A stretch of 35,015 nucleotides of DNA, from NCBI GenBank assembly GCA_043738925.1, contig JAYUFA010000285.1, forward strand, positions 1-35,015, written 5' to 3'. Below the pieces are notes generated by a model. The model ran no database searches and was not told where the DNA came from. It was given only the letters and a program-made list of their open reading frames with translations. This DNA is from Actinomycetota bacterium. Its GTDB lineage: Bacteria > Actinomycetota > Acidimicrobiia > Acidimicrobiales > WLNW01. A program made the translations under genes and the position numbers. Positions 1,573 to 25,336 of the stretch are shown here, in pieces (within the stretch, counting starts at the first letter, position 1; every line of letters begins with the position of its first letter).

Positions 1573-1583
1573 GGAGCAGCGCC

Positions 1584-7985: not shown

Positions 7986-8035
7986 GTACGCGCCGGCTGT
8001 GCCGGATGACCACCGCTCCCGAGGACCGTTCCATT

Positions 8036-8060
8036 TCGATACGGATACGTTCCGTATCGA
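8036..8060. promoter_or_regulatory. Perfect inverted repeat TCGATACGGA-tacgt-TCCGTATCGA; candidate operator for the downstream TetR regulator
   Basis: 10-bp arms and a 5-nt spacer, read directly. The repeat ends 22 nt before the MFS ATG (8083), just upstream of the GGAGGG RBS. No U-tract follows, so it is a weak terminator candidate. Confidence 0.45.
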
Positions 8061-8082
8061 GACAACCCAGGGAGGGCCCCTC

Positions 8083-11684: not shown

Positions 11685-12659
11685 ATGGCAACAAGCGAAC
11701 AGGCACCACCGACCACCGCGGACGTCCTCGAGTACTTCACCACGTTGTCGAATTGGGGACGCTGGGGCGAGGACGACACGCGAGGAACGTTGAACTACAT
11801 CACACCTAGCGTGACGTGCGCCGCGGCCGCGGAGATACGCGAGGGCGTCTCGGTCTCGTGCGCGTGGGATATCGATGGCACGCCGGATCTTCATGGGCCG
11901 TCGCAACGATTCATGATCAACATCGGTCAAGGCCTCGGCGACGAGAACCGCGTTCTGCCGAAGCACCGCCGCGCCACCGACCGCAGCGCTGGAGCTGCCG
12001 AATACGTGGGCTTCGCATTCCACGGAATGAACATGACCCACATCGACGCGCTCTCGCACATCTTCTGGGACAAACAGATGTTCAACGGCAAGCCAGCGGA
12101 GCACGTGACCGCACATGCGGGTGCCGTGAGCCTGGCAATCACCGATATCGCCGATGGCATCACGTCGCGCGGCGTCCTGCTCGATATCGCCGCCACGGAG
12201 GGCGTCGATTGGCTTGAGCCTGGGTTCGGCGTCACACCCGCGCATCTTGATGCCGCGGAGGAGCGCCAAGGCGTGCGGGTTCGTTCCGGTGACATCCTCT
12301 TCCTGCGGGTTGGCTATTCGCGGCGACGGCGAGCCGAGGGAATACGCCCGATGAACCTCGGACAAGCCGGTTTTCACGCGTCGGCGCTGCCGTGGTTGCA
12401 CGAGCGAGGCGTAGCGGCAATCGGCAACGACGGCGGCCAGGACGCCATGCCATCGGGCTATCACCGCGAGGGCCTCGCCATGCCGATCCACGCCATCGGC
12501 ATCACCGCGATGGGCTTATGGCTGGTGGACAACCTTGATCTCGAACCGCTCGCAGACGCGTGCGAGGCTCGCCGGCGCTGGACCTTCTTCGTCCACCTCG
12601 CGCCGCTCCGCCTGGCCGGCGCGACCGGATCGCCGCTCAACCCGATCGCCATCTTCTGA
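11685..12659 (+). CDS. Putative cyclase / arylformamidase (KynB-like, PF04199-type) metal-dependent hydrolase
   Basis: Internal ATG at 11685. FHGMNMTHIDALSH resembles the HxGTHxDxPxH metal motif of this family. It lies on the same strand as the NRPS gene, 254 nt upstream of it. Confidence 0.75.
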   Translation: MATSEQAPPTTADVLEYFTTLSNWGRWGEDDTRGTLNYITPSVTCAAAAEIREGVSVSCAWDIDGTPDLHGPSQRFMINIGQGLGDENRVLPKHRRATDRSAGAAEYVGFAFHGMNMTHIDALSHIFWDKQMFNGKPAEHVTAHAGAVSLAITDIADGITSRGVLLDIAATEGVDWLEPGFGVTPAHLDAAEERQGVRVRSGDILFLRVGYSRRRRAEGIRPMNLGQAGFHASALPWLHERGVAAIGNDGGQDAMPSGYHREGLAMPIHAIGITAMGLWLVDNLDLEPLADACEARRRWTFFVHLAPLRLAGATGSPLNPIAIF

Positions 12660-12912: not shown

Positions 12913-15900
12913 TTGAACGACCACAACGAGTCTCACGACCACGCTGCGTGGCGCTGCGCGTTCATCGGCGACGAATCCCTCGCTGCGCAATGCAGCGAGA
13001 TCGCCCGCCAGCACGGCCTCGTCGTCGCGGTAATCGCTACGAACAACCCGCAGGTTCGTCGCTACGCCGAGGAGAACGACATCGCGTGCGTCGATTCCGC
13101 AGGCGATCTCGCGGCCACACTGGCGCAGCATGAGTTCGACGTGTTGCTGAGCGTCGCCAACCTGCGCGTCCTGTCCGACGCGGTGCTCTCGCTCGCGCCG
13201 GTGAACATCAACTTCCATGATGGACCGCTACCCGGCTACGGGGGTCTCAACGTAACGAGTTGGGCCATCCTCGGCGGCGAACGCCAGCACGCCATCACCT
13301 GGCACATCATGACGGCCGACGTCGACGGCGGCGAAGTCATCACGACCGAATTGATGCCGATCCTTGCCGATGACACCGCGTTCTCGCTGAACGCACGCTG
13401 CTACGAAGCTGGTGTCAGCAGCTTCGCCAGGGTCGCCGAGCAGCTCGCAGCGCGCACCCTGCGGACCACCGCGCAACCGGCAGGCGAGCGCCGCATGTTC
13501 GGCAAGTTTGCCCGACCCGCGACCTTGTTCGATCCTCAGGCACCTGCGGCCGACACCGATCGTTTGCTGCGCGCCATCTCGCTCGGGTCGCGTTATCGCA
13601 ACACATTGGGCTCGCTGCGCATCGTGCTCGACAACGCGGTGTACGTGCTCGAACGCACCCGCGTGCTCGACGCAACACCTGGCGTGCCGGCGGGTCACAT
13701 CGTCGCGATCGACGAGGACGGCGTACGCGTCGCGACCACCGAAGCGGACCTACTCCTCATCGAGGTGAGCACCGCATCAGGCTCGGTCGCATCCGTGCGC
13801 GAGATGGTCTCGGGCCGCGGTCTTGCCGCCGGTGACGCGTTTCCCACTCCCCCGTCCTTGCTGGTCGCCGCGTTGGCCGCTGCCGACAATCATCTCGCGC
13901 GCAACGAGACGTTCTGGTTGAACCGACTGGCCCGACTCGAACCCACCGATCCACCACGGGTCTCGTTGACCCCCCTCGACGAGACCTGGTCGTCGACCAA
14001 CATCACCCTGCCCGACAACACGTCGACAGATGACATCGTCGCCTCGGTGGTGCTTTGGTTAGCGCGCGTGAGCGGCACCGGCCGTGCCGCTATGAGTTAC
14101 GACGATGCCGACCTGCGTGCGTCGTGCACGAAGCTCGCACCGCTCGCGCACGGACCGGTCCTCGCGATCGACGTGCCCGATGGGCAAACCTTCGCCGAGT
14201 TGCGCTCGGCGATTGCCGCGGAGCGCGAGCAACTCGCCAAGCGAGGCCCGTTCCTACACGACGCAGTCGGTCGCGACCCGCGCACGCGCGGCAAAAGCAT
14301 TCACACCTCAACCGCGTTTTGTCTCGATACGTCCGAGCAAGCGAGCCGAGTAGGCACGCCCGATGCCACCACCCTGTTGCGCTTCGAGTACACGTCCGAT
14401 TCGCAGACCTTGACCCTGCATCATCGCAACGACGCGTTCGACGCAGCCCATGCGGCACGCGTCGGCGAACAGCTCACCACGTTGCTCGCTGCCACCAGGA
14501 CAACTGCCGAAGCGCGCGTCTACGAGTTGGCGCTGATCGGCCCCACCGAGCAGGCGCTGCTCGACGCGATGAATGCCACCGGCATCGGCTACGACATCAC
14601 CGCCACCGTCGACGAGCTCTTCCGTGCTCAAGCACGACATACGCCGGACGCGCCCGCACTCACTTTCGCGGCACGCACCCTCACCTACGCGCAGCTGCGC
14701 GACGCAACAAATCTGCTCGCCGCCAAGCTTCGCGCCGCAGGAGTTGGCCGCGGCGATCGGGTCGGCATCGCGCTGCCACGCAGCATCGACATGGTGGTCA
14801 GCGTGCTCGCCACACTCGAATGCGGCGCGGCGTACCTTCCGCTCGACCCGACCTATCCAGACGATCGCCTCGATTTCATGGTCGACGATGCGGGCATCAA
14901 AGCCCTTATCGCGCAGGGCGAGATCGCCGTGCGGCTCTCGCGGCCCGGTCTCGCACTCGTGCACCCCAACGACCCTGATGTGGCGGGCAACGAAGCGGCC
15001 CACGATCACGTCGCGAGCGACCTCGCCTACGTCATCTACACATCGGGCTCTACCGGCAAGCCCAAGGGCGTGATGCTCACGCATCGCAACGCCAACAATT
15101 TCTTTGTCGCGATGGACGCGAAGATCGACCCCGAGCATCCCGGCACGTGGCTGTCGGTCACCAGCCTGTCGTTCGACATTTCGGTGCTCGAGCTGCTGTG
15201 GACGCTCACGCGCGGCTATCACGTGGTCCTCAAGGCCGACCGTGGTATCCCCACGCACGCCACGAGCGGGGCTGTCACCGCCACGGTGCCACCCGTCAGC
15301 GCGCGACCGATGTCGCTCAGCCTCTTTTATTTCGCGGCCGGGGAATCGCAGGCCGCCGAGGGCTATCGACTACTCCTCGAAGGCGCGAAGTTCGCCGACA
15401 AGAACGGCTTCGAAGCGGTGTGGACACCCGAGCGACATTTCCATGCGTTCGGTGGCCACTATCCGAACCCATCCGTGGTGAGCGCCGCCGTTGCGGCGAT
15501 AACCGAGCACGTGCACATCCGCGCGGGCAGCGTCGTGCTGCCGCTGCATTCGCCCGTCCGCGTGGCCGAGGAATGGGCCATCGTCGACAATCTCTCGCGC
15601 GGCCGCGTCGGCATCTCCTTCGCCGCAGGTTGGCAACCGAACGACTTCGTGCTGAACCCATCGGTGTATGGCACGGCCAAGGATGCGCTGCCGTCGATGA
15701 TCGACACCGTCAAGCGGTTGTGGCGCGGCGAGACCGTTGACCTCCCCGGTCACGATGGAGTGCCGGTCCCCACGCGCACGTTGCCGCGGCCCGTGCAACC
15801 CGAGCTACCGGTGTGGCTCACGTCGGCGGGTTCTCCGTCGACTTTTGTGCAAGCCGGCACCCTCGGCACGAATCTGCTTACCCACTTGCTCGGCCAATCC

Positions 15901-17622
15901 ACCGAAGAACTCGGCGCGAACATTCGTCGCTATCGCGATGCGTGGACAGCTGCCGGTCACGATGGTCACGGCCGCATCACGCTGATGCTGCACACATTCC
16001 TCGACCGCGATGCGAACGTGGCCAAGGAATCGGCTCGACTGCCCCTGAAGGGGTATCTCGGCACTGCCGCCGGACTGCTGAAGAACATGGCGTCCGCGTT
16101 CCCCACCTTTGCTGGGTCAGGCAAGGATGCCGACGAGGCATTCAAGTCTCTCACCGAGGATGAACTCTCGCAGTTGCTCGACATGGCAGCCGATCGCTAC
16201 CTGCAAACCAGCGGGCTCTTCGGCACAGCGCACGACGCCGCTCACGTGATCGAGAAGGTGTCCGTGCTCGGGGTGGACGAGGTTGCGTGCCTGATCGACT
16301 TCGGGGTCGATACCGAGGCCGTGCTCAGCTCCTTCGAGCTGCTGCGCGAGACCAAAGACCTCATCGACGCGCATCGTGCCGCTGCCGCGAGCGCTCCATC
16401 GGCGCCAGTCGCCGAGGTGATCGACATGGCCGACGACACCGTGGCCGCGCTCAGCGCGCGCCACGGTGTCACCCACCTCCAATGCACGCCGTCACTGGCG
16501 GCCATGTTGGTGGCCGACCCCGCCGACCGGCAGGCGCTCACCACTATTCGCCACATGATGGTCGGCGGCGAAGCGTTGCCTGCGGCCCTCGCCGCCGAAC
16601 TGCGCGAGCTGTTGCCCGCGCGGTTCACCAACATGTACGGCCCGACCGAGACCACGATCTGGTCGTTGACCCACGAGATCGACCGCCCGCCCGAGGCCGC
16701 TGTACCCATCGGCCTTCCCATCGCGAACACCACGATCTTCGTGCTCGACGCGAACGGCCGGCCGTTGCCGATGGGCGTATACGGCGAGCTGCATATCGGC
16801 GGCGACGGCGTGGCCCACGGTTATCACAACCGCCCCGATCTCACCGCCGAGCGCTTCGTCGACCGGCCTGGCATGGGTCTCGTGTATGCCACGGGTGACG
16901 TCGCTCGCATCCATCCAAGCGGCACGGTCGAGTTCGCAGGCCGCGCCGACAATCAGGTCAAGATCCGCGGTCACCGCATCGAACTCGGCGAGATCGAGGC
17001 GGTGCTCGACACCCACCCCGATGTCGTGCAATCGGTGGTCGTCGCTCGCAGCGATAGCGGCACCCCGCAACTCGTCGCGTACGTGGTCACCCACGGCAAT
17101 CGCAAGGCCGACAGCGACATCCTGCGCAAGCACGTGGCCGAGGAGTTGCCCGAGATCATGGTGCCAGCCGCTGTCGTCACCTTGGCCGCCTTTCCGCTCA
17201 CCCCGAACGGCAAGGTCGATCGCAAGGCAATGCCCGCGCCGCCGACGGGCAGCGGCGTCACCTCGGCGAACAGTGTCCTGGTGCCGCCCACCGACGAACA
17301 CGAGGCCTTGGTCGCGCTGATCTGGACCGAGGAGCTCGGCCGACCCGTCAGCCGCGACGACAACTTCTTCGAGATCGGTGGTCACTCGTTGCTCGCCGTG
17401 AAGGTCTTCCGTCGCTTGAGCGAGGCCGCCGACGCACCGCTCGCGCTCACGGATATCTTTCGGTACCCGACCATTCGAACTTTTGCCGCGCACCTCGGCG
17501 CCGCGGTTGGAGGCGCCTCCGGCGGGTCAGTCGACCCGTCGTCCGCACCGACGGCCGCGCCGACCGGCACCGACCGTGGGGCGATGCGACGCCGCGCACT
17601 CAACCGCCGCGGCGGAGACTGA
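12913..17622 (+). CDS. Starter NRPS module: formyltransferase, C-domain remnant, A domain interrupted by a luciferase-like monooxygenase, and PCP
   Basis: 1569 aa. TTG start with GAGG 5 nt upstream. A-domain motifs A1-A10 are all present, an LLM domain sits between A4 and A5, and the PCP has the GGHSL motif. See the domain features below. Confidence 0.95.
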   Translation: MNDHNESHDHAAWRCAFIGDESLAAQCSEIARQHGLVVAVIATNNPQVRRYAEENDIACVDSAGDLAATLAQHEFDVLLSVANLRVLSDAVLSLAPVNINFHDGPLPGYGGLNVTSWAILGGERQHAITWHIMTADVDGGEVITTELMPILADDTAFSLNARCYEAGVSSFARVAEQLAARTLRTTAQPAGERRMFGKFARPATLFDPQAPAADTDRLLRAISLGSRYRNTLGSLRIVLDNAVYVLERTRVLDATPGVPAGHIVAIDEDGVRVATTEADLLLIEVSTASGSVASVREMVSGRGLAAGDAFPTPPSLLVAALAAADNHLARNETFWLNRLARLEPTDPPRVSLTPLDETWSSTNITLPDNTSTDDIVASVVLWLARVSGTGRAAMSYDDADLRASCTKLAPLAHGPVLAIDVPDGQTFAELRSAIAAEREQLAKRGPFLHDAVGRDPRTRGKSIHTSTAFCLDTSEQASRVGTPDATTLLRFEYTSDSQTLTLHHRNDAFDAAHAARVGEQLTTLLAATRTTAEARVYELALIGPTEQALLDAMNATGIGYDITATVDELFRAQARHTPDAPALTFAARTLTYAQLRDATNLLAAKLRAAGVGRGDRVGIALPRSIDMVVSVLATLECGAAYLPLDPTYPDDRLDFMVDDAGIKALIAQGEIAVRLSRPGLALVHPNDPDVAGNEAAHDHVASDLAYVIYTSGSTGKPKGVMLTHRNANNFFVAMDAKIDPEHPGTWLSVTSLSFDISVLELLWTLTRGYHVVLKADRGIPTHATSGAVTATVPPVSARPMSLSLFYFAAGESQAAEGYRLLLEGAKFADKNGFEAVWTPERHFHAFGGHYPNPSVVSAAVAAITEHVHIRAGSVVLPLHSPVRVAEEWAIVDNLSRGRVGISFAAGWQPNDFVLNPSVYGTAKDALPSMIDTVKRLWRGETVDLPGHDGVPVPTRTLPRPVQPELPVWLTSAGSPSTFVQAGTLGTNLLTHLLGQSTEELGANIRRYRDAWTAAGHDGHGRITLMLHTFLDRDANVAKESARLPLKGYLGTAAGLLKNMASAFPTFAGSGKDADEAFKSLTEDELSQLLDMAADRYLQTSGLFGTAHDAAHVIEKVSVLGVDEVACLIDFGVDTEAVLSSFELLRETKDLIDAHRAAAASAPSAPVAEVIDMADDTVAALSARHGVTHLQCTPSLAAMLVADPADRQALTTIRHMMVGGEALPAALAAELRELLPARFTNMYGPTETTIWSLTHEIDRPPEAAVPIGLPIANTTIFVLDANGRPLPMGVYGELHIGGDGVAHGYHNRPDLTAERFVDRPGMGLVYATGDVARIHPSGTVEFAGRADNQVKIRGHRIELGEIEAVLDTHPDVVQSVVVARSDSGTPQLVAYVVTHGNRKADSDILRKHVAEELPEIMVPAAVVTLAAFPLTPNGKVDRKAMPAPPTGSGVTSANSVLVPPTDEHEALVALIWTEELGRPVSRDDNFFEIGGHSLLAVKVFRRLSEAADAPLALTDIFRYPTIRTFAAHLGAAVGGASGGSVDPSSAPTAAPTGTDRGAMRRRALNRRGGD
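12949..13785 (+). other. Formyltransferase (F) domain: Fmt-like N-terminal catalytic part plus C-terminal OB-like part (approximate bounds)
   Basis: INFHDGPLPGYGG corresponds to the N-x-H-x-S-LLP-x-x-RG motif, with the His codon at 13216-13218. ADVDGGEVI corresponds to the catalytic Asp motif. The layout resembles the F domains of LgrA and OzmO. Confidence 0.8.
13906..14580 (+). other. Condensation-domain C-terminal half without the HHxxxDG catalytic motif (remnant or linker)
   Basis: ETFWLNRLARLEP...LPD...DIVASVVLWLARVSG resembles the post-C3 region of C domains. No HHxxxDG was found anywhere upstream of the A domain. Confidence 0.5.
14596..17235 (+). other. Adenylation domain, interrupted; hand-derived specificity code DILQMGMIWK (Gly-like)
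   Basis: A3 is LAYVIYTSGSTGKPKG and A4 is SFDISVLE (Asp codon 15175-15177), followed by the insertion. After it come A5 NMYGPTETT (16630), A6 GELHIGGDGVAHGY, A7 YATGD, A8 GRADNQVKIRGHRIELGEIE and A10 NGKVDRK. The code was obtained by manual alignment to GrsA-PheA positions 235-517. Confidence 0.85.
15310..16350 (+). other. Luciferase-like (FMN-dependent) monooxygenase domain inserted between A4 and A5 (MtaG/MelG MOx-type)
   Basis: MSLSLFYFAAG...YRLLLEGAKFADKNGFEAVWTPERHFHAFGGHYPNPSV...RAGSVVLPLHSPVRVAEEWAIVDNLSRGRVGISFAAGWQPNDF is the typical natural-product LLM-domain signature. Confidence 0.85.
17301..17495 (+). other. Peptidyl carrier protein (T) domain
   Basis: FFEIGGHSLLAVKV, with the phosphopantetheinyl Ser codon at 17386-17388. 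Confidence 0.9.
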
Positions 17623-17667: not shown

Positions 17668-20600
17668 ATGAACGCCGACGAGCTGTCCGAATCCGACATC
17701 GCGATCGTTGGCATGTCGGGGCGCTTCCCCGGCGCGCCCGATGTCGATGCGTTGTGGACTCGGGTGCGCAACGGTGACGACTGCCTGGTCGACCTCGACC
17801 CCAACGATCTGATCGCCGCCGGTTTGCCGGCGTCACTCGTGCAGGCAACCGACTACGTCAAGCGTTCTGGCATTCTCGAAGGCGTCGACACCTTCGACGC
17901 CGGGTTCTTCGGAATCGGCGCACGCGACGCGTCGATCATGGACCCGCAACATCGACACTTCTACGAGATCGCATGGGAGACCATCGAGTCCGCCGGTTAC
18001 GTCCCCGAGCGATTCGACGGCGCAATCGGCGTGTTCGCCGGTTGCGGTATGAACACCTACCTCGTCAACAACCTGCTCACGAACCCCCAACTCGTCGATC
18101 AGGTGGGCTGGTTCCTCCTGCGCCACACCGCCAACGACAAAGACTTCCTGGCGACCGGCGTTTCCTACCGACTCGATTTGCGCGGCCCATCGATCAGCGT
18201 GCAGACCGCATGCTCCACATCGCTCGTCGCGATCCATCTCGCCGCACAGAGCCTGCTGTCGTTCGAGTGCGACATGGCCGTCGCCGGCGGCGTCACCATC
18301 GAAGTGCCCCACGCCCGCGGCTACCGCTACCACGAAGGCGAGATCCTCGCGCCCGACGGGATGTGCCGTGCGTTCGACGCCCGTTCCGGCGGCACGGTGC
18401 TTGCCAGCGGCGCCGGCGCCGTCGCGCTGCGACGCTTGACCGACGCCTACCGTGACGGTGATCCCATCCTCGCGGTCGTGAAGGGCAGCGCCGTCAACAA
18501 CGACGGCAGTCGCAAGGTGAGCTATCTCGCGCCGAGTGTCGACGGCCACGCCGACGTCGTCAAAGAAGCGCTCGCGGTTGCCGGGTTGTCGGCACGTGAC
18601 ATCACGCTGCTCGAGGCGCACGGCACCGGCACAGCCGTCGGCGATCCGATCGAGGTCGCGGCCCTTACCGAAGGGTTCCGCGCGTCGACGACCGACACCG
18701 GGTTCTGCCGCCTCGTGTCCACCAAGCCGAATATCGGTCACCTCGATACCGCGGCCGGTGTCGCCAGCATCATCAAGGTTGTTCAGGCGCTGCGTCACCA
18801 GACGCTGCCACCGATTGCCAACCACACCGCGCCGAGCCCGCTGCTCGACATCGAGCGCACGCCCTTCGTGCTGTCGGGCCATGCTTCGCCGTGGCCGACC
18901 ACCGGCACGGCCCCGCGTCGTGCGGGGGTCAGCTCGCTCGGCGTAGGCGGTACGAACGCTCACGTCATCGTCGAGGAGGCACCTGAGTACGCGCCCACAC
19001 CCGCGGCGGCGCCCGAGCAAGTACTCGCGTTGTCGGGTCGCTCGCCGAAAGCCGTCGACGATGCGGTAACCCGCCTCGCCGACTTCCTCGAAGCGCACCC
19101 CGACACGAACCTCGCCGACGTCGCGTTCACACTTGCCACCGGCCGACGCGCCATGACGCACCGCCGCGTACTCACGGTCACCGATACCACGAGCGCACCG
19201 ACGCAACTGCGAGAGGCCGACCGGCGCCGCAACCAGCAGGGTCAAACAGCCGACACGGCGCCCGGCGTCGCATTCTTGTTTCCCGGAGGCGGCGCGCAGT
19301 ACGTCGGCATGGGGGCCGGGCTCGACGAGCGCTTTGACGTTTACCACCAGGTGATGCGTGACGGCATCGCGCTCACCAGGCAACTGGCCAACGGTCTCGA
19401 CCTTGCGCCACTCCTTACGCCGGGCGGAGACGACGACGCGTTGCGTCAAGCCGACGCGTCGCTACCCGCGGTGTTTATCACCACGATCGCGCTCGCGAAG
19501 CAGTGGATGGCCTGGGGTGTCAGACCTCGTACGTTCGTCGGCCACAGCCTGGGCGAGTACGCAGCCGCACACCTCGCTGGTGTGCTCACGTTCAAGGATG
19601 CGCTCTCACTCGTGGTGGTGCGCGCACAGCTGATGGCGCGCGTCGGAGGCGCCGGTGCCGCGATGCTCGCCGTGCCATTGTCCTCGGAGCAGGTCCGAGC
19701 GATCCTGCCGGAGAGCATCTCGCTTGCCACCGTGAACGCTCACGACGAATGCGTCGTATCCGGTCACGCCGTCGACGTGTTCGCGTTCGACGAGCAACTT
19801 GCCGCCGACGGAATCACCTGTACACGCATCCCGCTCGCTGCCGCGGCGCACAGCTCCTTGCTCGATCCGGTACTCGCCGAGTTCCTCGAGGCTGTGCGGG
19901 GTGTCACGCTGTCGGCGCCCCAAATGCCCTACCTGTCAAACCTCACCGGCACGTGGATCACCACCGAGCAGGCCACAGATCCGCAGTACTGGGTCGACCA
20001 TCTGCGTAACACCGTGCGGTTCGCCGATTGTCTGGCCACCGCGCTCGCCGACGGCCCACTCGCGCTCGTCGAGATCGGGCCCGGGCAATCGCTGTCGTCG
20101 TACGCACGGCGCCAGGAGACCAACGCCCCCGTAATCGTGGTGGCCTCACTCCGTCACCCCAACGACAAGACCGACGACACGGTGCACTCGTTGCAGGCGG
20201 TCGCAAAGCTTTGGACCGTCGGCGTGCCCGTCGCGCTCGAGCAGTTCAGCGGTACTGGTCGACGACGCTTACGATTGCCGACCTACCCCTTTCAACGCGA
20301 ACGCCATTGGATCGAACCCGGCAATGGCTACAGCACCACCGAAGGTGCGTCGGTGGCCGCGACCCGGCCCGTGGGCATTGCACGGGGGCACGAGGCCAAG
20401 CCGAGCGGGCCGGCGCGTATCGACAACCTTGACGACTGGTTCTGGGAACCGTCGTGGGTCGAACGCGAGTTGCAGTCCACGCCGCGCGCCACCGTTGGTC
20501 CGTGGTTACTCGTCGGCGATGACGCCGATCCGCTCGTTGGCGCCATCTCGGTCGAACTGCGCCACCGCGGCGAGATCGTGCGCACCGCAAGCACCTTCGA

Positions 20601-23600
20601 TCCCGATCGCTTGGGCCCCAGCCGCGCCATTGCCGTCATCGGCGCCGCGGGCAATGACGCCACCGGCCTCGATCGTGCCGCAGCACGCTGGTTGGGCGAC
20701 ACCGTGTCAGCCGCACGAACGTTGGGCAACCACGCCGATGGTGTTGCCCGCCTCGCGGTGGTCACACGTGGCGCAACAGCGGCAGGCGGCATGGCCACAC
20801 GGCCCGTCGACGCGCTCGCGCTCGGCACGGTGCTCGTCGCACCAAAAGAGTATCCCGATCTCACCACCGTGCTCGTCGATCTCGACGCCGCCGCGGGTTC
20901 TGAAGGAGCGCGTGCCGCGGTCGACGAACTGCTCGCCGCCACCGACCGCGTCGTTGCCCGCCGCGGCAAAGCCCGCCTCGTGCCCGAACTCTCGCGACTC
21001 GCCCTGCCGGCCCCGCGCGCCGACACCGTCACCTTCCGCAAGGGTGGCATCTACGTCGTGACCGGCGCGCTCGGCGGTGTCGGTCACGTGCTGGCGAAAC
21101 ATCTCGCGACCGCGCACGACGCGTCGCTTGTCGTGGTGTCGTCGACCACGGTCCCTGAGGGCGACCAACGCGACCGCTGGCTGGCGCGTCACGGCCACGA
21201 CGACGCGACCTCACGTCGCATCCGACGACTCGTCGAGCTCGAAACGCTGGCCACCAAGGTCGTCACCGTCACCGCTGACCTCGCCGATCCTGTCGCTCTA
21301 CGCCACGCGCTTGACGAAGCCGAGCGCCGTATTGGTCGCATCGACGGCGCCGTGCACGCTGCCGGCCACCTGCAAGATCGACTCATCGAAATGGTCACCC
21401 CCGAGGACCACGAAGCCGTCATCGGTCCCAAGGCCCGCGCCGCGATTGTGTTGGCCGACGAGCTGGCGCGACGTGGCGCCGAGCTGCTCGTGCTGGTCAG
21501 CTCGACCAGCACGACGCTCGCTCCCGGCGGACAAACAAGCTATGTCGCGGCGAACGCCGTACTCGATGCTCTTGCAGGCACGCGTGGACGGCTGCGGGTC
21601 ACGACGATGGACTTCGGTGTGTGGGCCGGCACGGGCATGGCGGCCCAAGCTGCGCGCAAGCTCCGCCTTGGCATCGAGGATGGCACCCACATCATTCATC
21701 CGGTGTTGGCCGAGATGCAGGTCGGCCGCGACGGCACGCTTGCGTTCATCGGCCGCGTGGATGCCGCGCATGACTGGGTCGTCAACGAACATCGCACCGA
21801 GACTGGCGTCGCGGTGTTGCCGGGCACCGGCCACATTGAGCTGATGCTGGCTGCGCTGCACTATGGCAAGGTCGGCCGGGCCGGACTCCGCAACGTTGCT
21901 TTGCTCGAACCACTCATCGTGCCCGAGTCGAGCACGGTCACACTCAAGGTCACGGTCACGCCCGCAGATACCGCCGGCGTCCGGTTTGTGCGGATCGACA
22001 GCGACCGCGGCGGCGGCCGCGTCTGGCACACCCACAGCGAGGCGGAGGTCGTTGCCATCGATCCGTCGCTTGCGCTCGCACCACTCGATCTCGACGCGCT
22101 CGGCCGGGCATGCGGTCTCGACGGCATCGATGTGCTCGCCGGCCCTCGCCGCCACCTACGCCTCGGTCCTCGGTGGGACGCCGTGGTCGACGCGGCACTC
22201 GGTGACGGCGAGATCTTCGGCCGCCTCGCGCTCGCCGATGCATTCGACGACGACGCGCACGCCTGGACTGTACATCCCGCGTTGTTCGACGTGGCCACCG
22301 CCTTCGGTGTTCGCCTCGCCGCTTCCGACGATGAAGAGGCGCTGTACGTGCCTGTCGGATACGACAGCGTCACGTCGATCGCGCCGCTGCCGTCGCATGT
22401 GGTGGTGCACGCAACGCGACATCCCTCGACAACCGATCAGATACTTCGCGTCGATCTCACGTTGGCAGACATAGAGGGGAACGTCGCGCTCCGCGTCAGT
22501 GGTCTCAGCTTGCGCGCGATGCGTGACCCCGGCATGTTCGCGGCAGCGCCGGATGACGATGCTCCAGCCACGCCGCGGGCGATGGCGCCGCTGTTGGCGC
22601 TCGCCGAGGACCTCGGCATTCGTGAGGCCGAAGGCGCGTTGCTCGTCGAGCGCCTACTGGCCAGCGGTCGGCCCCGTCTGATCGCGTCAAGCGTCGATCT
22701 CGACTCGTTACGAGACGACGAAGACGCCGACAGCGCCGCGAGCAAACCGAGCGACCTCGCTGCGCCTGCCGGCAGCGTCGTCGACGCGCTCACGGTCATG
22801 TGGCGTGACCTGCTCGGCGTCGACAACGTCTCGCCCACCGACGATTTCTTCGATCTTGGCGGACATTCGCTCATCGCGATCCGCTTGATGGCACGCGTTC
22901 ACCGCGAGCTCGGCGTGCGCTTTCAGCTCGCGACACTGTTCGAAGCTCCCACCATCGACAAGCTTGCCGCACTCGTGCGGGTCGAGCGCCCGACCATCGA
23001 CGCCACGCTCGCCCAAGTCGCAGCCGACACGCCCACACCGGCCGAGGCCGCGTCAGCCGCGTCGAGCCGAGCCAGTTGTCTCGTGCCGATCCGTGCGGCC
23101 GGTCACAAAGAGCCGTTCTTCATCGTGCATGGCGCGGGCGGCAACGTGCTCTACCTGTGGAGCCTCGTGCGTGCTCTTCCCGAAGGCCGACCGGTATACG
23201 GGTTCCAGGCCCACGGCATCGATGGCATCGGACAACCTGACCAGACCATCGAAGCCATGGCCGCGCGCTACGTCGAGGCATTGGTTGCGTTCAAGCCCGG
23301 ACCGTATGTGCTCGGCGGCTACTCCGGCGGCGGCATTGTCGCGTTCGAGATGACGAAGCAGCTGCAGGCGCTGGGCCAACAGGTGCAATACCTGGTGCTC
23401 TTCGATTCCATCGGCTCCCAATACCTGGGCCCGCGGTTCGGGTCGCGCCTCAAGAACGTCACGCAGAACCTCGGACGCGAAGGCGTACGCGAGCTCTGGC
23501 CTTTCCTCGATGAGTTGGCACGCAAGCGCTATCGCCGCATCGTCCCGTCACCGGCAGCCAAACAAGCGGCCCGCGAGGTCCAGTCGCGCGAGATGGGCTA

Positions 23601-23880
23601 TTCCGACGTAACCGACTTCGGGATTGTCGATCTTGAGGATCACTTCGCCGAAGTCGTGCATCGCTACCGGCTTGGCAGCTACAACGTCGACTATGCGCTG
23701 CTGAAAGCCGACGAGGTGTGGCCGGTGTTCCCGAGGGACTACTACTGGTCGCGCTACGTGACCGGCTCCATCGACGTCGTGTCGGTGCCCGGCAATCACC
23801 ACACGATGTTCGCTCCCGAGAACGCACCGATCCTGGCGGCCAAGCTCACACGTCTCCTTGACGAGCACGACCCGACATGA
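17668..23880 (+). CDS. Type I polyketide synthase: KS-AT-KR-DH-carrier-TE
   Basis: 2070 aa. ATG at 17668 with GAGGA upstream, 45 nt after the NRPS stop. Domain motifs are listed in the features below. Confidence 0.95.
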   Translation: MNADELSESDIAIVGMSGRFPGAPDVDALWTRVRNGDDCLVDLDPNDLIAAGLPASLVQATDYVKRSGILEGVDTFDAGFFGIGARDASIMDPQHRHFYEIAWETIESAGYVPERFDGAIGVFAGCGMNTYLVNNLLTNPQLVDQVGWFLLRHTANDKDFLATGVSYRLDLRGPSISVQTACSTSLVAIHLAAQSLLSFECDMAVAGGVTIEVPHARGYRYHEGEILAPDGMCRAFDARSGGTVLASGAGAVALRRLTDAYRDGDPILAVVKGSAVNNDGSRKVSYLAPSVDGHADVVKEALAVAGLSARDITLLEAHGTGTAVGDPIEVAALTEGFRASTTDTGFCRLVSTKPNIGHLDTAAGVASIIKVVQALRHQTLPPIANHTAPSPLLDIERTPFVLSGHASPWPTTGTAPRRAGVSSLGVGGTNAHVIVEEAPEYAPTPAAAPEQVLALSGRSPKAVDDAVTRLADFLEAHPDTNLADVAFTLATGRRAMTHRRVLTVTDTTSAPTQLREADRRRNQQGQTADTAPGVAFLFPGGGAQYVGMGAGLDERFDVYHQVMRDGIALTRQLANGLDLAPLLTPGGDDDALRQADASLPAVFITTIALAKQWMAWGVRPRTFVGHSLGEYAAAHLAGVLTFKDALSLVVVRAQLMARVGGAGAAMLAVPLSSEQVRAILPESISLATVNAHDECVVSGHAVDVFAFDEQLAADGITCTRIPLAAAAHSSLLDPVLAEFLEAVRGVTLSAPQMPYLSNLTGTWITTEQATDPQYWVDHLRNTVRFADCLATALADGPLALVEIGPGQSLSSYARRQETNAPVIVVASLRHPNDKTDDTVHSLQAVAKLWTVGVPVALEQFSGTGRRRLRLPTYPFQRERHWIEPGNGYSTTEGASVAATRPVGIARGHEAKPSGPARIDNLDDWFWEPSWVERELQSTPRATVGPWLLVGDDADPLVGAISVELRHRGEIVRTASTFDPDRLGPSRAIAVIGAAGNDATGLDRAAARWLGDTVSAARTLGNHADGVARLAVVTRGATAAGGMATRPVDALALGTVLVAPKEYPDLTTVLVDLDAAAGSEGARAAVDELLAATDRVVARRGKARLVPELSRLALPAPRADTVTFRKGGIYVVTGALGGVGHVLAKHLATAHDASLVVVSSTTVPEGDQRDRWLARHGHDDATSRRIRRLVELETLATKVVTVTADLADPVALRHALDEAERRIGRIDGAVHAAGHLQDRLIEMVTPEDHEAVIGPKARAAIVLADELARRGAELLVLVSSTSTTLAPGGQTSYVAANAVLDALAGTRGRLRVTTMDFGVWAGTGMAAQAARKLRLGIEDGTHIIHPVLAEMQVGRDGTLAFIGRVDAAHDWVVNEHRTETGVAVLPGTGHIELMLAALHYGKVGRAGLRNVALLEPLIVPESSTVTLKVTVTPADTAGVRFVRIDSDRGGGRVWHTHSEAEVVAIDPSLALAPLDLDALGRACGLDGIDVLAGPRRHLRLGPRWDAVVDAALGDGEIFGRLALADAFDDDAHAWTVHPALFDVATAFGVRLAASDDEEALYVPVGYDSVTSIAPLPSHVVVHATRHPSTTDQILRVDLTLADIEGNVALRVSGLSLRAMRDPGMFAAAPDDDAPATPRAMAPLLALAEDLGIREAEGALLVERLLASGRPRLIASSVDLDSLRDDEDADSAASKPSDLAAPAGSVVDALTVMWRDLLGVDNVSPTDDFFDLGGHSLIAIRLMARVHRELGVRFQLATLFEAPTIDKLAALVRVERPTIDATLAQVAADTPTPAEAASAASSRASCLVPIRAAGHKEPFFIVHGAGGNVLYLWSLVRALPEGRPVYGFQAHGIDGIGQPDQTIEAMAARYVEALVAFKPGPYVLGGYSGGGIVAFEMTKQLQALGQQVQYLVLFDSIGSQYLGPRFGSRLKNVTQNLGREGVRELWPFLDELARKRYRRIVPSPAAKQAAREVQSREMGYSDVTDFGIVDLEDHFAEVVHRYRLGSYNVDYALLKADEVWPVFPRDYYWSRYVTGSIDVVSVPGNHHTMFAPENAPILAAKLTRLLDEHDPT
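17695..18980 (+). other. Ketosynthase domain
   Basis: DIAIVGMSGRFPG. Active-site TACSTSLVAIHLA with the Cys codon at 18211-18213. EAHGTGTAVGD, KPNIGHLDTAAG and GTNAHVIVEE are also present. Confidence 0.95.
19267..20170 (+). other. Acyltransferase domain with an atypical specificity motif
   Basis: FLFPGGGAQY. GHSLGEY with the Ser codon at 19546-19548. The specificity position reads AAAHS rather than HAFHS (malonyl) or YASHS (methylmalonyl). Confidence 0.9.
20500..21645 (+). other. Ketoreductase domain (structural plus catalytic subdomains), located before the DH
   Basis: Rossmann motif VVTGALGGVGHVLAKHL (21061-21084) and catalytic region SSTSTTLAPGGQTSYVAANAVLD. Confidence 0.85.
21697..22525 (+). 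other. PKS-type dehydratase (double hot-dog) domain, located after the KR
   Basis: HPVLAE. NEHRTETGVAVLPGTGHIE with the His codon at 21790-21792. LGPRW occupies the YGPxF position, and HPALFDVATAF corresponds to the D-xxx-Q/H motif. Confidence 0.8.
22777..22980 (+). other. Carrier domain with a PCP-type motif (GGHSL) rather than the ACP-type (GxDSL)
   Basis: DDFFDLGGHSLIAIRLMARV, with the Ser codon at 22867-22869. Confidence 0.85.
23080..23877 (+). other. Type I thioesterase domain
   Basis: FFIVHGAGGN. GGYSGGG with the Ser codon at 23323-23325. A distal His lies in PGNHHTMF. Confidence 0.85.
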
Positions 23881-24638
23881 CCGCTGCCGACCTCGATGGG
23901 CAGCTCGACGCGCCCGCCTTGGTTGCTGCGGCCCGACTCCTCGCCGAACGCACTGGCCTCACCATTGCGCTCGTACCGATCGCTGACGCTGGCCGAGCCG
24001 CAGACAGCGTTGGCGGCCAACACGCGGCCGGCAAGGCATTGGGTGCAAGCGGTTTCCCCTATGGCTTCGACGGCCGGCACCGCGACGATGGTCGGCCGAT
24101 TTGGCCGGCCGAGTACACGGGCTCGATCGCGCATGCGGGCGCGATCGCGGCAGCGGCGGTTCTGGCGTTACCTCGGCGCGCCGCCGTGAGGCAACCAGCG
24201 CGGGGCGTGGGTATCGACATCGAGATCGAATGCGCGCTGCCCGCGGCCGACGCTACGGCCGTGCTTGGACATGGAGAACGCGCGCTCGTCATCGGCGCTG
24301 ATCGGCCCGACGCGCTCGCGACCATGCTGTGGAGCGCGAAAGAGGCGGCATACAAGGCGTGGTGCGAAGCGCTTGACGGCCACATCGGCACCGTCGATCC
24401 GGTCGACATCCAAATCGAGATCGGCGCCCCGGTTGACGGTTTACAACCGATTCTGGCGCGACCGCGGGGCGCGCTGGCAACAACGCTGGCGGGCTTCGAC
24501 CCGGCGGTGGGATGGTGCGCCGCCGCCGACGGCTATGTGTTGGTGGCCGTGTCTGTCGGCGCAGCGCCCCGCCACGGCGACGACGGCATTGCCAGCGAAG
24601 CAATCACGAGCCCAAGCGCCGCGAACGCCACGACATAG
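23877..24638 (+). CDS. 4'-phosphopantetheinyl transferase (Sfp/EntD type)
   Basis: ATGA overlap with the PKS stop. Motifs PIWPAEYTGSIAHAG, GIDIE and WSAKEAAYKAW. Confidence 0.85.
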   Translation: MTAADLDGQLDAPALVAAARLLAERTGLTIALVPIADAGRAADSVGGQHAAGKALGASGFPYGFDGRHRDDGRPIWPAEYTGSIAHAGAIAAAAVLALPRRAAVRQPARGVGIDIEIECALPAADATAVLGHGERALVIGADRPDALATMLWSAKEAAYKAWCEALDGHIGTVDPVDIQIEIGAPVDGLQPILARPRGALATTLAGFDPAVGWCAAADGYVLVAVSVGAAPRHGDDGIASEAITSPSAANATT

Positions 24639-25051
24639 AGACCACCGCCGACGACAAGCGGCTCGCTGGTGAGCTGATCGTGGGCATGGGTGATGCTCCA
24701 TCGGTTGATCAGGTACAAGCCGAACACCACGAGACCGCACGCGGCAATCGCCAACCGCAGCGCGAGATGGCGCACGCCGACCGCGACCGCGCCGCCGAGG
24801 CCGGCGCCGACCGTGACCAGCCCGATGACGATCCACCCGTTGACGTGATCGACACCGCGACCCGACACACCGTCGGCGTAGTGCAGCCACGGCGCGAACG
24901 AGCCGAACACGCCGGCCATCACCGCGGCGGTCGCGAACGCGAGGGTCGCCCAGACGCGTTTGTCACGCGGCTGATGCCGCGGTGGCGAACCGATGGAGAC
25001 CCACCCATCGGGCGGCAACGCAGTGGCCGCGATCGGCGGCGCCAACGGCAT
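24533..25051 (-). CDS. Small hypothetical membrane protein (about 4 TM helices)
   Basis: Lower part of the 24533..25267 ORF; the upper part is occupied by the tRNA gene. Start candidates are the ATGs at 25051 and 25096. Its 3' end overlaps the PPTase 3' end convergently by 106 nt. Confidence 0.45.
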   Translation of the reverse strand: MPLAPPIAATALPPDGWVSIGSPPRHQPRDKRVWATLAFATAAVMAGVFGSFAPWLHYADGVSGRGVDHVNGWIVIGLVTVGAGLGGAVAVGVRHLALRLAIAACGLVVFGLYLINRWSITHAHDQLTSEPLVVGGGLYVVAFAALGLVIASLAMPSSPWRGAAPTDTATNT

Positions 25052-25123
25052 CACGAAACGGTCACGTCCCTGCTCAACCACTTGGTGTCCCTGCATGCGG
25101 TCGCGAGCGACCGATTGGCGGAG

Positions 25124-25204: not shown

Positions 25205-25336
25205 ATAAAGGCCCATCCGCTGAGCCGTCATGAGGATAGCCCGACGTCGCCTGCATCCAGCACGCACCTGCGAGGGTCGTCGCTTCTCGACAACGTGCTC
25301 ACGGGTCGGTGCGGCTCGTATGCCAGAGTGGGCCCT

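What the first reader, a model, noticed from the sequence alone, without database searches (positions are those of the whole stretch)
12913..17622. Starter module joins a formyltransferase to a glycine-type A domain split by a luciferase-like monooxygenase
The A4 motif (FDIS, 15172) and the A5 motif (NMYGPTE, 16630) are about 1.45 kb apart. The insert is a full LLM domain (about 15310-16350).

Manual extraction of the Stachelhaus positions gives D-I-L-Q-M-G-M-I-W-K. Published Gly codes are DILQLGLIWK and DILQLGMIWK.

In MtaG and MelG, a Gly-specific A domain with an MOx insert at the same A4/A5 position hydroxylates the glycine alpha-carbon at the end of the chain, producing a terminal amide. 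Here the same device sits in an initiation module behind an F domain with an intact N/H/D catalytic set.

Alpha-hydroxylating an N-formyl-glycyl thioester would create a labile N-acyl hemiaminal. One speculative outcome is loss of formamide, leaving a glyoxylyl-S-PCP starter. Another is an alpha-hydroxy-formamido unit. The module also keeps only the C-terminal half of a C domain, with no HHxxxDG motif.
Basis: partly seen in the sequence, partly recalled or inferred. Interest (0 to 1): 0.75.

Follow-up and report, generated by a model that had tools for sequence, protein, structure and literature searches.

The report
Formyl-glycine starter module with built-in hydroxylase
The gene encodes the first enzyme of a small two-enzyme natural-product pathway: it loads glycine, very probably formylates its nitrogen and hydroxylates its alpha-carbon; this domain combination is uncharacterised, yet occurs in more than a thousand sequence clusters across many bacterial phyla.

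Summary
ORF 12913-17622 (+, 1569 aa) reads: a complete Fmt/ArnA-type formyltransferase; the C-terminal lobe only of a condensation domain (no HHxxxDG); an adenylation domain with all ten core motifs and the glycine code DILQMGMIWK; a 345-aa MupA/Atu3671-family luciferase-like monooxygenase (LLM) inserted between A4 and A5; and a PCP.

- The module is not a one-off. Its N-terminal 560 aa recruit 1156 50%-identity clusters at E<=1e-30. 59 of the 80 best species-level genome loci have the same architecture, spread over at least nine phyla.
- It has a fixed partner. This is a KS-AT-KR-DH-carrier-TE synthase (17668-23880) with every catalytic residue conserved, plus a PPTase (23877-24638). One GT2 glycosyltransferase family lies nearby in 32 of 65 loci, but not in this window.
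- The LLM is 48% identical to the solved PuwE oxygenase domain (6KET), a proposed alpha-hydroxylase of carrier-bound thioesters.

Best reading: Gly-S-PCP is N-formylated, then alpha-hydroxylated, and handed to the PKS for extension, reduction and dehydration. The fate of the carbinolamide (kept, or collapsed to glyoxylyl plus formamide) cannot be settled in silico. Ten literature searches found no description. It is a new variant built from known parts.

The parts
12913..17622 (+). NRPS starter gene, 1569 aa: F - C-lobe relic - A(LLM) - PCP
   Evidence: ORF, translation, domains. The same gene model (1569 aa) is called on the source contig. The conserved sequence begins at about aa 13 (RCAFIGDESL).
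12949..13827 (+). Formyltransferase (F) domain, aa ~13-305: Rossmann-type catalytic lobe with N100/H102/D138, plus an Fmt-type C-terminal lobe
   Evidence: Pfam Formyl_trans_N aa 61-173 and a weak Formyl_trans_C aa 239-302. Aligns to ArnA residues 72-309 at E 3.5e-12. The triad is conserved in 113, 114 and 113 of 114 relatives. AlphaFold model pLDDT 92; ArnA FT domain 2bln_A TMt 0.84 and Fmt 3tqq TMt 0.84.
13915..14592 (+). Relic C-terminal lobe of a condensation domain plus the C-A linker, aa ~335-560; the N-lobe and HHxxxDG are absent
   Evidence: Family profile A1 against PDB: Txo1 C residues 196-473 at E 3.7e-21, EntF 213-468 at E 6e-14. In the fold search all top 50 hits are C domains, TMq 0.51-0.69. 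It is the least conserved part of the protein, mean column conservation 0.35. No HHxxxDG-like motif.
14620..15267 (+). Adenylation domain, first part (motifs A1-A4), aa ~570-785
   Evidence: Pfam AMP-binding aa 570-777, profile positions 1-242. Motifs located at LTYAQL aa 590, LAYVIYTSGSTGKPKG aa 704 and FDIS aa 754.
15316..16350 (+). Luciferase-like FMN monooxygenase (LLM/MOx) inserted between A4 and A5, aa 802-1146
   Evidence: TIGR04020 at 465 bits against a cut-off of 244, full model length. 48% identical over 343 aligned positions to the PuwE oxygenase domain, PDB 6KET, E 1.3e-104. 85 positions are at least 97% conserved in 114 relatives, including PERHFHxFGG.
16429..17232 (+). Adenylation domain, second part (A5-A10), aa ~1173-1440
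   Evidence: NCBIfam TIGR01733 stretch aa 1173-1376 and Pfam AMP-binding_C aa 1360-1434. Motifs located at NMYGPTE aa 1240, GELHIGG aa 1291, YATGD aa 1325, GRADNQVKIRGHRIELGEIE aa 1343 and NGKVDR aa 1432.
17314..17496 (+). PCP, aa 1468-1528, with the phosphopantetheine serine in GGHSL (Ser1492, nt 17386)
   Evidence: Pfam PP-binding; GGHSL at aa 1489.
17668..23880 (+). Partner type I PKS, 2070 aa: KS (aa 9-435), AT (536-843), KR (1127-1320), DH (1344-1620), carrier (1707-1770), TE (1816-2060)
   Evidence: Pfam domains. The catalytic residues C182, H318, H358, S627, H728, Y1292, N1296, H1375, D1541, S1734, S1886 and H2044 are conserved in 21 partner PKSs from several phyla. A PKS lies beside the NRPS in 44 of 59 F-type genome loci and in all 6 loci fetched through proteins.
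23877..24638 (+). Sfp-type 4'-phosphopantetheinyl transferase; its start overlaps the PKS stop (ATGA)
   Evidence: Pfam 4PPT_N and ACPS. Related PPTases are found in at least 28 of 65 F-type loci.

Best explanation
This is the loading enzyme of a three-gene NRPS-PKS cassette (starter NRPS, one PKS, one PPTase). The steps below separate what is shown from what is inferred.

Shown at sequence level:
- The A domain activates glycine and loads it on Ser1492 of the PCP.
- A complete Fmt/ArnA-type F domain and an intact LLM are present.
- The PKS has intact KS, AT, KR, DH, carrier and TE domains.

Inferred:
- The F domain N-formylates Gly-S-PCP from N10-formyl-tetrahydrofolate.
- Formylation comes first, because it supplies the N-acyl group that the LLM normally sees in C-A(LLM)-PCP modules. 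The formyl donor replaces the missing upstream peptidyl donor. The leftover C-lobe is a scar of that ancestry and probably still serves as the platform for the A domain.
- The LLM, with reduced FMN and O2, then hydroxylates the glycine alpha-carbon. This gives N-formyl-alpha-hydroxyglycyl-S-PCP, a carbinolamide.
- I take that species to be handed to the KS.
- The PKS adds a malonyl-type unit, reduces the beta-keto group and dehydrates. The TE releases a small 4-carbon enoate: 4-formamido-4-hydroxybut-2-enoate or its lactone, 5-formamido-2(5H)-furanone. Alternatively, in the lineages where a GT2 is adjacent, the TE transfers it onto a glycoconjugate.

The final fate of the carbinolamide is not resolved.
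For: Glycine specificity:
- The code is DILQMGMIWK. DILQ[MLFA]G[MLV][IV]WK is found in all 114 relatives and in all 88 genome-derived cassettes.

F domain:
- It is complete, with the ArnA-equivalent N/H/D triad conserved in 113, 114 and 113 of 114 relatives.

LLM:
- It is full length and is, with the second half of the A domain, the most conserved part of the protein (0.71 mean conservation).
- It is 48% identical to the PuwE oxygenase domain (6KET). That domain is assigned the 2-hydroxylation of a carrier-bound acyl chain (PMC4219810).
- The same Gly-A(LLM) cassette occurs in a MtaG-like terminal module (L028).
- MtaG/MelG chemistry is alpha-hydroxylation of N-acyl-glycyl thioester. FMO domains in assembly lines hydroxylate alpha to the thioester, and alpha-hydroxyglycine is retained in solanimycin B.

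Retention through hand-off is plausible:
- C-A(LLM)-PCP modules followed by a KS exist (L015, L072, L085, and L026 with FAAL-ACP-C-A(LLM)-PCP).

PKS partner:
- It is fixed, and all its catalytic residues are conserved.

Operon structure:
- There is a 46-nt gap between NRPS and PKS, and the PKS and PPTase genes overlap.
Against: - No biochemical datum exists for any member of the family.
- The order of formylation and hydroxylation is inferred from chemical logic only.
- In the only genetically studied precedent with the same cassette (MtaG/MelG), the carbinolamide is cleaved, not kept.
- The AT motif is GHSLGE plus AAAHS rather than the classical HAFH, so malonyl specificity is only likely.
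- A single-module PKS could act iteratively and give a longer chain.
- The frequent GT2/polysaccharide neighbourhood in relatives hints at a fate that this model does not explain.
Confidence: 0.55

Rival explanations
1. Glyoxylyl starter. The steps are the same up to N-formyl-alpha-hydroxyglycyl-S-PCP. The carbinolamide then collapses on the PCP, as proposed for MtaG/MelG. Formamide is released and glyoxylyl-S-PCP remains, and this is what the KS extends. The product would be 4-oxobut-2-enoate or 5-hydroxy-2(5H)-furanone. The formyl group is a sacrificial N-acyl handle.
For: - The Gly-A(LLM) cassette is the same as in MtaG-type terminal modules.
- The published MtaG/MelG model leaves a two-carbon glyoxylyl unit on the carrier.
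- The C-lobe relic suggests descent from a C-A(LLM)-PCP module.
- The two products differ only by formamide addition, so they may interconvert.
Against: - It is a wasteful route to a C2 aldehyde.
- N-acyl carbinolamides are fairly stable at neutral pH, and animal peptide amidation needs a dedicated lyase (established knowledge).
- No lyase-like domain is present.
- Mid-chain C-A(LLM)-PCP modules followed by a KS argue that the cassette does not always cleave.
Confidence: 0.27
2. Iterative PKS, lipid-like product. The starter chemistry is as above, but the single KS-AT-KR-DH module runs several rounds. It makes a polyene or hydroxy acyl chain with a formamido head group. In many lineages this chain is glycosylated, or anchors or caps a surface polysaccharide.
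For: - There is one PKS module with no ER domain, and KR precedes DH.
- One GT2 family is adjacent in 32 of 65 F-type loci, and any glyco-related seed (GT1, GT2, WecG, Bac_transf, Wzz) in 41 of 65.
- Wzy, Wzz, Bac_transf and acyltransferase-3 genes lie in the same loci in L003, L005, L006 and L038.
Against: - No GT or polysaccharide gene is found in this 35-kb window.
- KR and DH look like ordinary modular types (PksJ, CurK).
- Nothing in the sequence distinguishes iterative from single use.
Confidence: 0.12
3. Hydroxamate or oxazole route. Either the LLM N-hydroxylates glycine and the F domain then makes an N-formyl-N-hydroxy (hadacidin-like) unit, or the formyl-glycine is cyclised to an oxazole as in oxazolomycin and conglobatin.
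For: - F-A(Gly)-PCP starters feeding a KS make oxazoles in the conglobatin and oxazolomycin pathways.
- Formyltransferase plus hydroxylase pairs make hydroxamates in siderophores (established knowledge).
Against: - The closest characterised LLM relatives all hydroxylate carbon next to a thioester.
- No OzmP/CongE-type cyclodehydratase is among the window's genes or in the loci inspected.
Confidence: 0.05

Closest known systems
MtaG / MelG (and CtaG) terminal modules of myxothiazol and melithiazol synthetases: C-A(MOx)-PCP-TE
   Same: - A glycine-specific A domain with a luciferase-like monooxygenase inserted between motifs A4 and A5.
- Proposed alpha-hydroxylation of N-acyl-glycyl-S-PCP.
- A MtaG-like module found here (L028, Cylindrospermum) has the identical nine-residue code DILQMGMIW, the same insertion point, and 51% identity over the cassette.
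   Different: - The cassette here sits in a starter module.
- The catalytic N-lobe of the C domain is gone and is replaced by a formyltransferase.
- The module has no TE. It hands its product to a KS.
- The acyl group on nitrogen would be formyl, not a peptide, so a 'terminal amide' product makes no sense here.
F-A-PCP initiation modules: LgrA (linear gramicidin), OzmO (oxazolomycin), CongA (conglobatin)
   Same: - An N-terminal formyltransferase domain that formylates the aminoacyl-S-PCP before chain extension.
- OzmO and CongA also load glycine and pass it to a PKS.
   Different: - Those modules have no monooxygenase insert and no C-lobe relic is described for them.
- The F domain here is far closer to ArnA/Fmt (E 3.5e-12) than to LgrA (E about 3e-3). 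It keeps the Fmt-type C-terminal lobe, which suggests an independent recruitment.
- No OzmP/CongE cyclodehydratase gene is present.
PuwE oxygenase domain of puwainaphycin synthetase (PDB 6KET)
   Same: It is the closest solved structure: 48% identity over 343 aligned positions, same TIGR04020-type LLM. It is assigned hydroxylation of the carbon next to the thioester of a carrier-bound chain.
   Different: PuwE's domain lies between an aminotransferase and an NRPS module, not inside an A domain. Its substrate is a beta-amino fatty acyl chain.
SolF of solanimycin synthetase
   Same: A Gly-activating module with a built-in flavin monooxygenase whose alpha-hydroxyglycine is retained in the product and extended further.
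   Different: The monooxygenase is inserted between A8 and A9, and it is an elongation module with a normal C domain.

Membership tests
MupA/Atu3671-family FMN-dependent luciferase-like monooxygenase (NCBIfam TIGR04020) | Full-length match to the family model above its curated cut-off | tested here: met
   465.1 bits against a cut-off of 244.45, model positions 1-339 of 341, aa 802-1146.
MupA/Atu3671-family FMN-dependent luciferase-like monooxygenase (NCBIfam TIGR04020) | FMN/O2-dependent hydroxylation of a carrier-bound thioester | not testable with these tools
   Only homology is available: 48% identity to the PuwE oxygenase domain (6KET), and the PERHFHxFGG motif is at least 97% conserved in 114 relatives.
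MOx-interrupted glycine A domain (MtaG/MelG type) | LLM inserted between A4 (FDxS) and A5 (NxYGPTE) | tested here: met
   A4 at aa 754, LLM at aa 802-1146, A5 at aa 1240. The junctions are the same as in the MtaG-like L028 module.
MOx-interrupted glycine A domain (MtaG/MelG type) | Glycine specificity code | tested here: met
   DILQMGMIWK. The published Gly codes DILQLGMIWK and DILQLGLIWK occur among family members. NRPSpredictor2 and SANDPUMA were not available.
MOx-interrupted glycine A domain (MtaG/MelG type) | Terminal elongation module: catalytic C domain upstream and TE downstream in the same protein, giving a terminal amide | tested here: not met
   No HHxxxDG-like motif and only the C-lobe of a C domain. 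The protein ends after the PCP, and the next gene starts with a KS.
F-domain initiation module (LgrA / OzmO / CongA type) | N-terminal formyltransferase domain with the Asn/His/Asp catalytic set | tested here: met
   N100/H102/D138 align with ArnA N102/H104/D140 and are conserved in 113, 114 and 113 of 114 relatives. The fold matches ArnA FT and Fmt.
F-domain initiation module (LgrA / OzmO / CongA type) | F domain joined directly to the A domain | tested here: not met
   About 230 aa of C-domain C-lobe lie between F and A.
F-domain initiation module (LgrA / OzmO / CongA type) | Formyl-tetrahydrofolate-dependent formylation of the aminoacyl-S-PCP | not testable with these tools
   This needs an in vitro assay.
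Formylglycine-derived oxazole pathways (oxazolomycin / conglobatin) | OzmP/CongE-type cyclodehydratase encoded next to the F-A-PCP gene | tested here: not met
   The neighbours are a cyclase (PF04199), PKS, PPTase, hydrolase and flavokinase. No such enzyme is in the window or in the related loci inspected.

The most novel reading that the evidence does not exclude
The formyltransferase works as a stand-in for an upstream peptidyl donor, so that a MtaG-type glycine hydroxylase can operate in a starter module. The resulting N-formyl carbinolamide is a masked glyoxylyl / N-acyliminium unit. This would be a previously unknown kind of PKS starter, made from glycine, formyl-folate and O2. It is extended to a reactive four-carbon butenolide or oxo-enoate. 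This two-enzyme pathway is an orphan metabolite family present in hundreds of species across at least nine phyla, and in many of them it is wired to a dedicated GT2 and to surface-polysaccharide genes.
Probability: 0.3. Interest if true: 0.7.

Novelty: new variant of a known kind. Interest (0 to 1): 0.55.

Why it matters
Each part is known on its own: F-domain starters, and Gly A domains split by a monooxygenase. The combination, with half a C domain left between them, is not described in any paper I could find.

It is not a curiosity of one metagenome. It is one of the more widespread small NRPS-PKS cassettes, found in Acidimicrobiia, cyanobacteria, Chloroflexota, Myxococcota, Planctomycetota, Acidobacteriota, Rhodothermales, Ignavibacteria and many Alpha-, Beta- and Gammaproteobacteria, including cultured Shimia, Leisingera, Sulfitobacter, Ramlibacter and Sphingobium.

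If the chemistry is as predicted, three things follow:
- It would define a new starter-unit logic, in which formylation enables alpha-hydroxylation of glycine.
- It would give a product to a very common orphan cluster, possibly a modifier of cell-surface glycans.
- It would give a clean example of how an elongation module is converted into a loading module by swapping the donor half of a C domain for a folate-dependent acyl donor.

The cassette is only three genes, so the prediction is directly testable by heterologous expression.

Tried and rejected
- Literature. Ten full-text searches found no paper on an F-A(MOx)-PCP module, on TIGR04020/Atu3671, or on this cassette. Look-ups of the Labby 2015 review, Martens 2007, Moran 2007 and Slightom & Buchan 2009 failed because they are not held. 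I recall from memory only that a conserved hybrid NRPS/PKS operon with a glycosyltransferase and a PPTase was noted in Roseobacter genomes (Martens et al. 2007). I could not verify this.
- Pfam on aa 300-583 alone gave only a faint Condensation hit (E 0.056). A family profile and a fold search were needed to show the C-lobe.
- A neighbour-joining tree of the A4-LLM-A5 cassette did not separate F-linked from C-linked cassettes. I draw no conclusion on which came first.
- Rfam found no riboswitch or other RNA upstream of the gene. Its only hit was a tRNA. The promoter scan of the 253-nt upstream gap found nothing.
- My first hydrolase seed was in the wrong frame (seen) and was redone. The alpha/beta hydrolase is shared only with a 71%-identical relative (L087), not across the family, so I do not count it as part of the cassette.
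- The PF04199 cyclase/formamidase-like gene just upstream was considered as a deformylase. It is absent from all 65 F-type loci, so it was rejected as a core part.
- GT2 and polysaccharide seeds were searched in the window and none was found.
- An inactive or relic module was rejected. All A-domain core motifs, the PCP serine, the F triad, the LLM and all PKS catalytic residues are intact and conserved.
Full report
**1. The observation**

ORF 12913-17622 (+) encodes 1569 aa. The same gene model is called on the source contig, an ENA metagenome assembly of 61,951 bp.

Domain hits:
- Pfam finds Formyl_trans_N, AMP-binding split in two, Bac_luciferase, AMP-binding_C and PP-binding.
- NCBIfam TIGR04020 (MupA/Atu3671-family LLM) covers aa 802-1146, i.e. 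nt 15316-16350. It scores 465 bits against a cut-off of 244, over the full model.
- Motifs A1, A3-A8 and A10 and the PCP GGHSL were located by exact search. A2 (LECGAAYLPLDP) and A9 (LPEIMVPA) are read from the translation.

The Stachelhaus positions, anchored on A4, A5, the TxLQCTPS stretch, the MMVGGEA stretch and A10, give DILQMGMIWK.

**2. The F domain**

It aligns with the ArnA formyltransferase domain over residues 72-309 (E 3.5e-12) and with Fmt (E 3.6e-9). The LgrA F domain matches only at E about 3e-3. In that alignment N100, H102 and D138 fall on ArnA N102, H104 and D140, the catalytic set by established knowledge of the ArnA/Fmt/GART family.

In 114 relatives of 40-100% identity, N100 is conserved in 113, H102 in all 114 and D138 in 113. 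The motif NFHDGPLPxY[AG]G is nearly fixed.

An AlphaFold model of aa 1-575 (pLDDT 92.4) places aa 1-305 on the whole two-lobe ArnA FT domain (2bln_A, TMt 0.84, rmsd 3.2 A) and on Fmt. The F domain is therefore complete, including the Fmt-type C-terminal lobe that Pfam saw only weakly.

**3. The 'half C domain'**

Pfam on this stretch alone gives only a faint hit to the last 55 positions of the Condensation model. Stronger tests confirm it:
- A profile built from 22 relatives (A1, aa 305-575) hits C domains in PDB from about residue 196 to the C-A linker: Txo1 E 3.7e-21, EntF 213-468 E 6e-14, plus PvdL, TomB and the LgrA C domain.
- An AlphaFold model of the stretch (pLDDT 89.8) finds only C domains among its 50 best PDB matches. 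TM-scores are 0.51-0.69 on the query length, but only 0.37-0.41 on stand-alone C domains of about 430-450 residues.
- No HHxxxDG-like motif exists in the protein.

So the N-lobe, with the catalytic histidines, is missing and the C-lobe is kept. It is the least conserved part of the protein (0.35 mean column conservation, against 0.71 for the LLM), as expected of a structural remnant.

**4. The monooxygenase insert**

The closest solved structure is the PuwE oxygenase domain (6KET): E 1.3e-104, and 48% identity over 343 aligned positions. In the puwainaphycin paper this domain, together with an aminotransferase, is assigned the conversion of the carrier-bound chain into a 3-amino-2-hydroxy acyl unit, which is hydroxylation next to the thioester (PMC4219810).

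Two further sources bear on this:
- The solanimycin paper states that such flavin monooxygenase domains hydroxylate alpha to the thioester. It places the insert of the myxothiazol and melithiazol synthetases between a4 and a5. It also notes that alpha-hydroxyglycine can be retained and extended (PMC10204066).
- The megapolipeptin paper restates the MtaG/MelG model, C-A-MOX-A-T-TE (PMC11411415).

Within the family, 85 LLM positions are at least 97% conserved, including PERHFHxFGG.

**5. It is a family, not a singular event**

The full protein finds more than 100 relatives of the same length and Pfam content. They come from Ilumatobacteraceae and other Acidimicrobiia (45-61% identity), Planctomycetes, Myxococcus/Pyxidicoccus, Ramlibacter, Caenimonas and Novosphingobium (about 42%).

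The N-terminal 560 aa (F plus C-lobe) were searched against 1.84 billion cluster representatives. They find 1156 clusters at E<=1e-30. Nearly all of the best 150 align from close to residue 10 of the query, most across both parts and the rest truncated or fragmentary. Most hits are about 1500-1600 aa proteins or fragments of them.

A scan of one genome per species with the A4-LLM-A5 cassette found at least 554 relatives. Among the best 80 loci:
- 59 are F - C-lobe - A(LLM) - PCP.
- Nine are cut by contig ends.
- The rest have other contexts. Those examined with Pfam are C-A(LLM)-PCP, FAAL-ACP-C-A(LLM)-PCP, and one C-A-PCP-C-A(LLM)-PCP-TE, which is the MtaG layout.

All 88 cassettes carry the glycine code and the same insertion junctions. 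The window's cassette is about as similar to the MtaG-like one (51%) as to F-type cassettes of other phyla (49-55%).

F-type loci come from Actinomycetota, Cyanobacteriota, Chloroflexota, Myxococcota, Planctomycetota, Acidobacteriota, Gemmatimonadota, Rhodothermales/Salinivenus, Ignavibacteria, and Alpha-, Beta- and Gammaproteobacteria.

By best hits, the window itself most likely belongs to an Acidimicrobiia (Ilumatobacteraceae-like) organism. This is an inference.

**6. The fixed partner**

In the window the NRPS is followed after 46 nt by a 2070-aa PKS (17668-23880). Its domains are KS, AT, KR, DH, carrier and TE, with KR before DH. The PKS stop overlaps the start of an Sfp-type PPTase (23877-24638).

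The same PKS lies next to the NRPS in all six loci fetched through proteins and in L087. It is also found in 44 of the 59 F-type genome loci: 16 downstream and 28 upstream. Most of the remaining loci are limited by contig ends.

In 21 partner PKSs all catalytic residues are conserved:
- KS: C182, H318, H358
- AT: S627, H728
- KR: Y1292, N1296
- DH: H1375, D1541
- Carrier: S1734
- TE: S1886 (Cys in three of the 21), H2044

KR and DH resemble ordinary modular domains (PksJ, CurK). The AT has GHSLGE and AAAHS. I read this as malonyl-type, without proof.

**7. Neighbourhood**

PPTases related to the window's are in at least 28 of 65 F-type loci. One GT2 family is in 32 of 65. Any glyco-related seed (GT2, GT1, WecG, Bac_transf, Wzz) is in 41 of 65, against 0-2 of the non-F loci for each seed.

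Examples:
- In Shimia marina the order is PKS - GT2 - NRPS - PPTase - Wzz ... Bac_transf ... acyltransferase-3.
- Novosphingobium-like, Ilumatobacter and Planctomycetia loci sit inside Wzy / GT / WecG clusters.
- A 75% relative has a GT2 and an ABC transporter divergently upstream.

The window has none of these. Its flanks are:
- nitrate/nitrite reductase genes, an MFS transporter, TetR and DUF2510;
- a PF04199 cyclase just upstream;
- after the PPTase, a tRNA-Cys on the other strand (25123-25204);
- an alpha/beta hydrolase (25337-26029) shared only with close relatives;
- a stand-alone flavokinase.

The core is therefore NRPS + PKS + PPTase.

**8. Mechanism**

Shown by sequence:
- a glycine-type A domain;
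- a complete formyltransferase;
- an intact thioester-alpha-hydroxylase-type LLM;
- a PCP;
- a KS-AT-KR-DH-carrier-TE partner.

Inferred:
- Formylation must precede hydroxylation. A free alpha-hydroxy-amine would lose ammonia at once. In every other context the cassette sees an N-acyl-glycyl thioester made by a C domain.
- Here the donor half of that C domain has been replaced by a folate-dependent acyl donor.
- The product on the PCP is N-formyl-alpha-hydroxyglycine, a carbinolamide.

I favour hand-off of this species to the KS for three reasons. C-A(LLM)-PCP modules followed by a KS exist. Solanimycin B keeps its alpha-hydroxyglycine. N-acyl carbinolamides are reasonably stable at neutral pH (established knowledge).

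The main rival is collapse to glyoxylyl-S-PCP plus formamide, as in the MtaG/MelG model. The two routes lead to products that differ only by formamide: 4-formamido-4-hydroxybut-2-enoate or 5-formamido-butenolide, against 4-oxobut-2-enoate or 5-hydroxybutenolide. Iterative use of the PKS, and transfer to a glycan, cannot be excluded.

**9. Comparison and novelty**

- The module works like a MtaG-type glycine hydroxylase, but it fails the membership test for that module type. It has no catalytic C domain and no TE, and it is a starter rather than a terminal module.
- It works like an LgrA/OzmO/CongA F-starter, but it differs in three ways: the LLM insert, the C-lobe between F and A, and an F domain that is ArnA/Fmt-like rather than LgrA-like.
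- It lacks the cyclodehydratase of the oxazole pathways.

Ten literature searches found no description of this architecture or its product.

I rate it a new variant of a known kind. It is of moderate to good interest because it is so widespread and so small that it can be tested directly. The interest is lowered because each part is known, and because the instance in this window is one of more than a thousand homologous clusters.

Noticed in passing
window 25123-25204 (-), inside listed ORF 24512-26029 (+): A tRNA-Cys (GCA) gene lies on the opposite strand between the PPTase and the alpha/beta hydrolase. The 505-aa ORF is therefore over-called. The real hydrolase gene is about 25337-26029 (230 aa, as called on the source contig). 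The tRNA probably marks the 3' edge of the cassette.
   Followed up: yes
window 26043-26603 (-): A stand-alone riboflavin kinase (Pfam Flavokinase, E 1e-36) lies 2.2 kb downstream of an FMN-dependent assembly line. A monofunctional flavokinase is unusual in bacteria and could supply FMN. It is not present at this position in the 71%-identical relative L087.
   Followed up: partly
window 11685-12659 (+): A PF04199 'cyclase' family gene (the family that includes kynurenine formamidase) lies 253 nt upstream of an N-formylating starter module. This suggests a possible deformylase, but no homologue is found in any of 65 related loci.
   Followed up: yes
related loci L003, L005, L006, L038, L040, L063 and 35 others: The NRPS-PKS pair is embedded in polysaccharide-type gene sets (GT2, GT1, WecG, Wzy, Wzz, Bac_transf, acyltransferase-3) in many lineages. 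One GT2 family is adjacent in 32 of 65 loci. In Rhodobacterales the order is PKS-GT2-NRPS-PPTase-Wzz.
   Followed up: partly
window 17668-23880 (+): In the partner PKS the KR precedes the DH, which is unusual for cis-AT modules. The carrier domain has the PCP-type GGHSL motif rather than an ACP-type motif. The AT has AAAHS in place of HAFH/YASH. All three features are conserved in 21 partners.
   Followed up: partly
L026 3636-10388 (Myxococcus sp. CA023); L052 3008-12245 (Ignavibacteria): There are other uses of the same Gly-A(LLM) cassette. One is FAAL-ACP-C-A(LLM)-PCP followed by a KS, a predicted lipo-alpha-hydroxyglycine. The other is a locus with an F-type module immediately followed by a second LLM-PCP ORF.
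   Followed up: no
window 378-9729 (+): A NirB-type nitrite reductase, a 4Fe-4S/DmsC-like protein, a molybdopterin oxidoreductase and an MFS transporter form an apparent nitrate/nitrite assimilation operon. It is unrelated to the cassette. The listed 1231-aa ORF 378-4073 is longer than the gene called on the source contig.
   Followed up: no
window 29731-32403 (-): An 890-aa ORF has two CoA-transferase family III stretches (Pfam E 1e-167), which looks like a tandem fusion. A xanthine dehydrogenase-type molybdopterin subunit is encoded divergently at 32235-34553.
   Followed up: no
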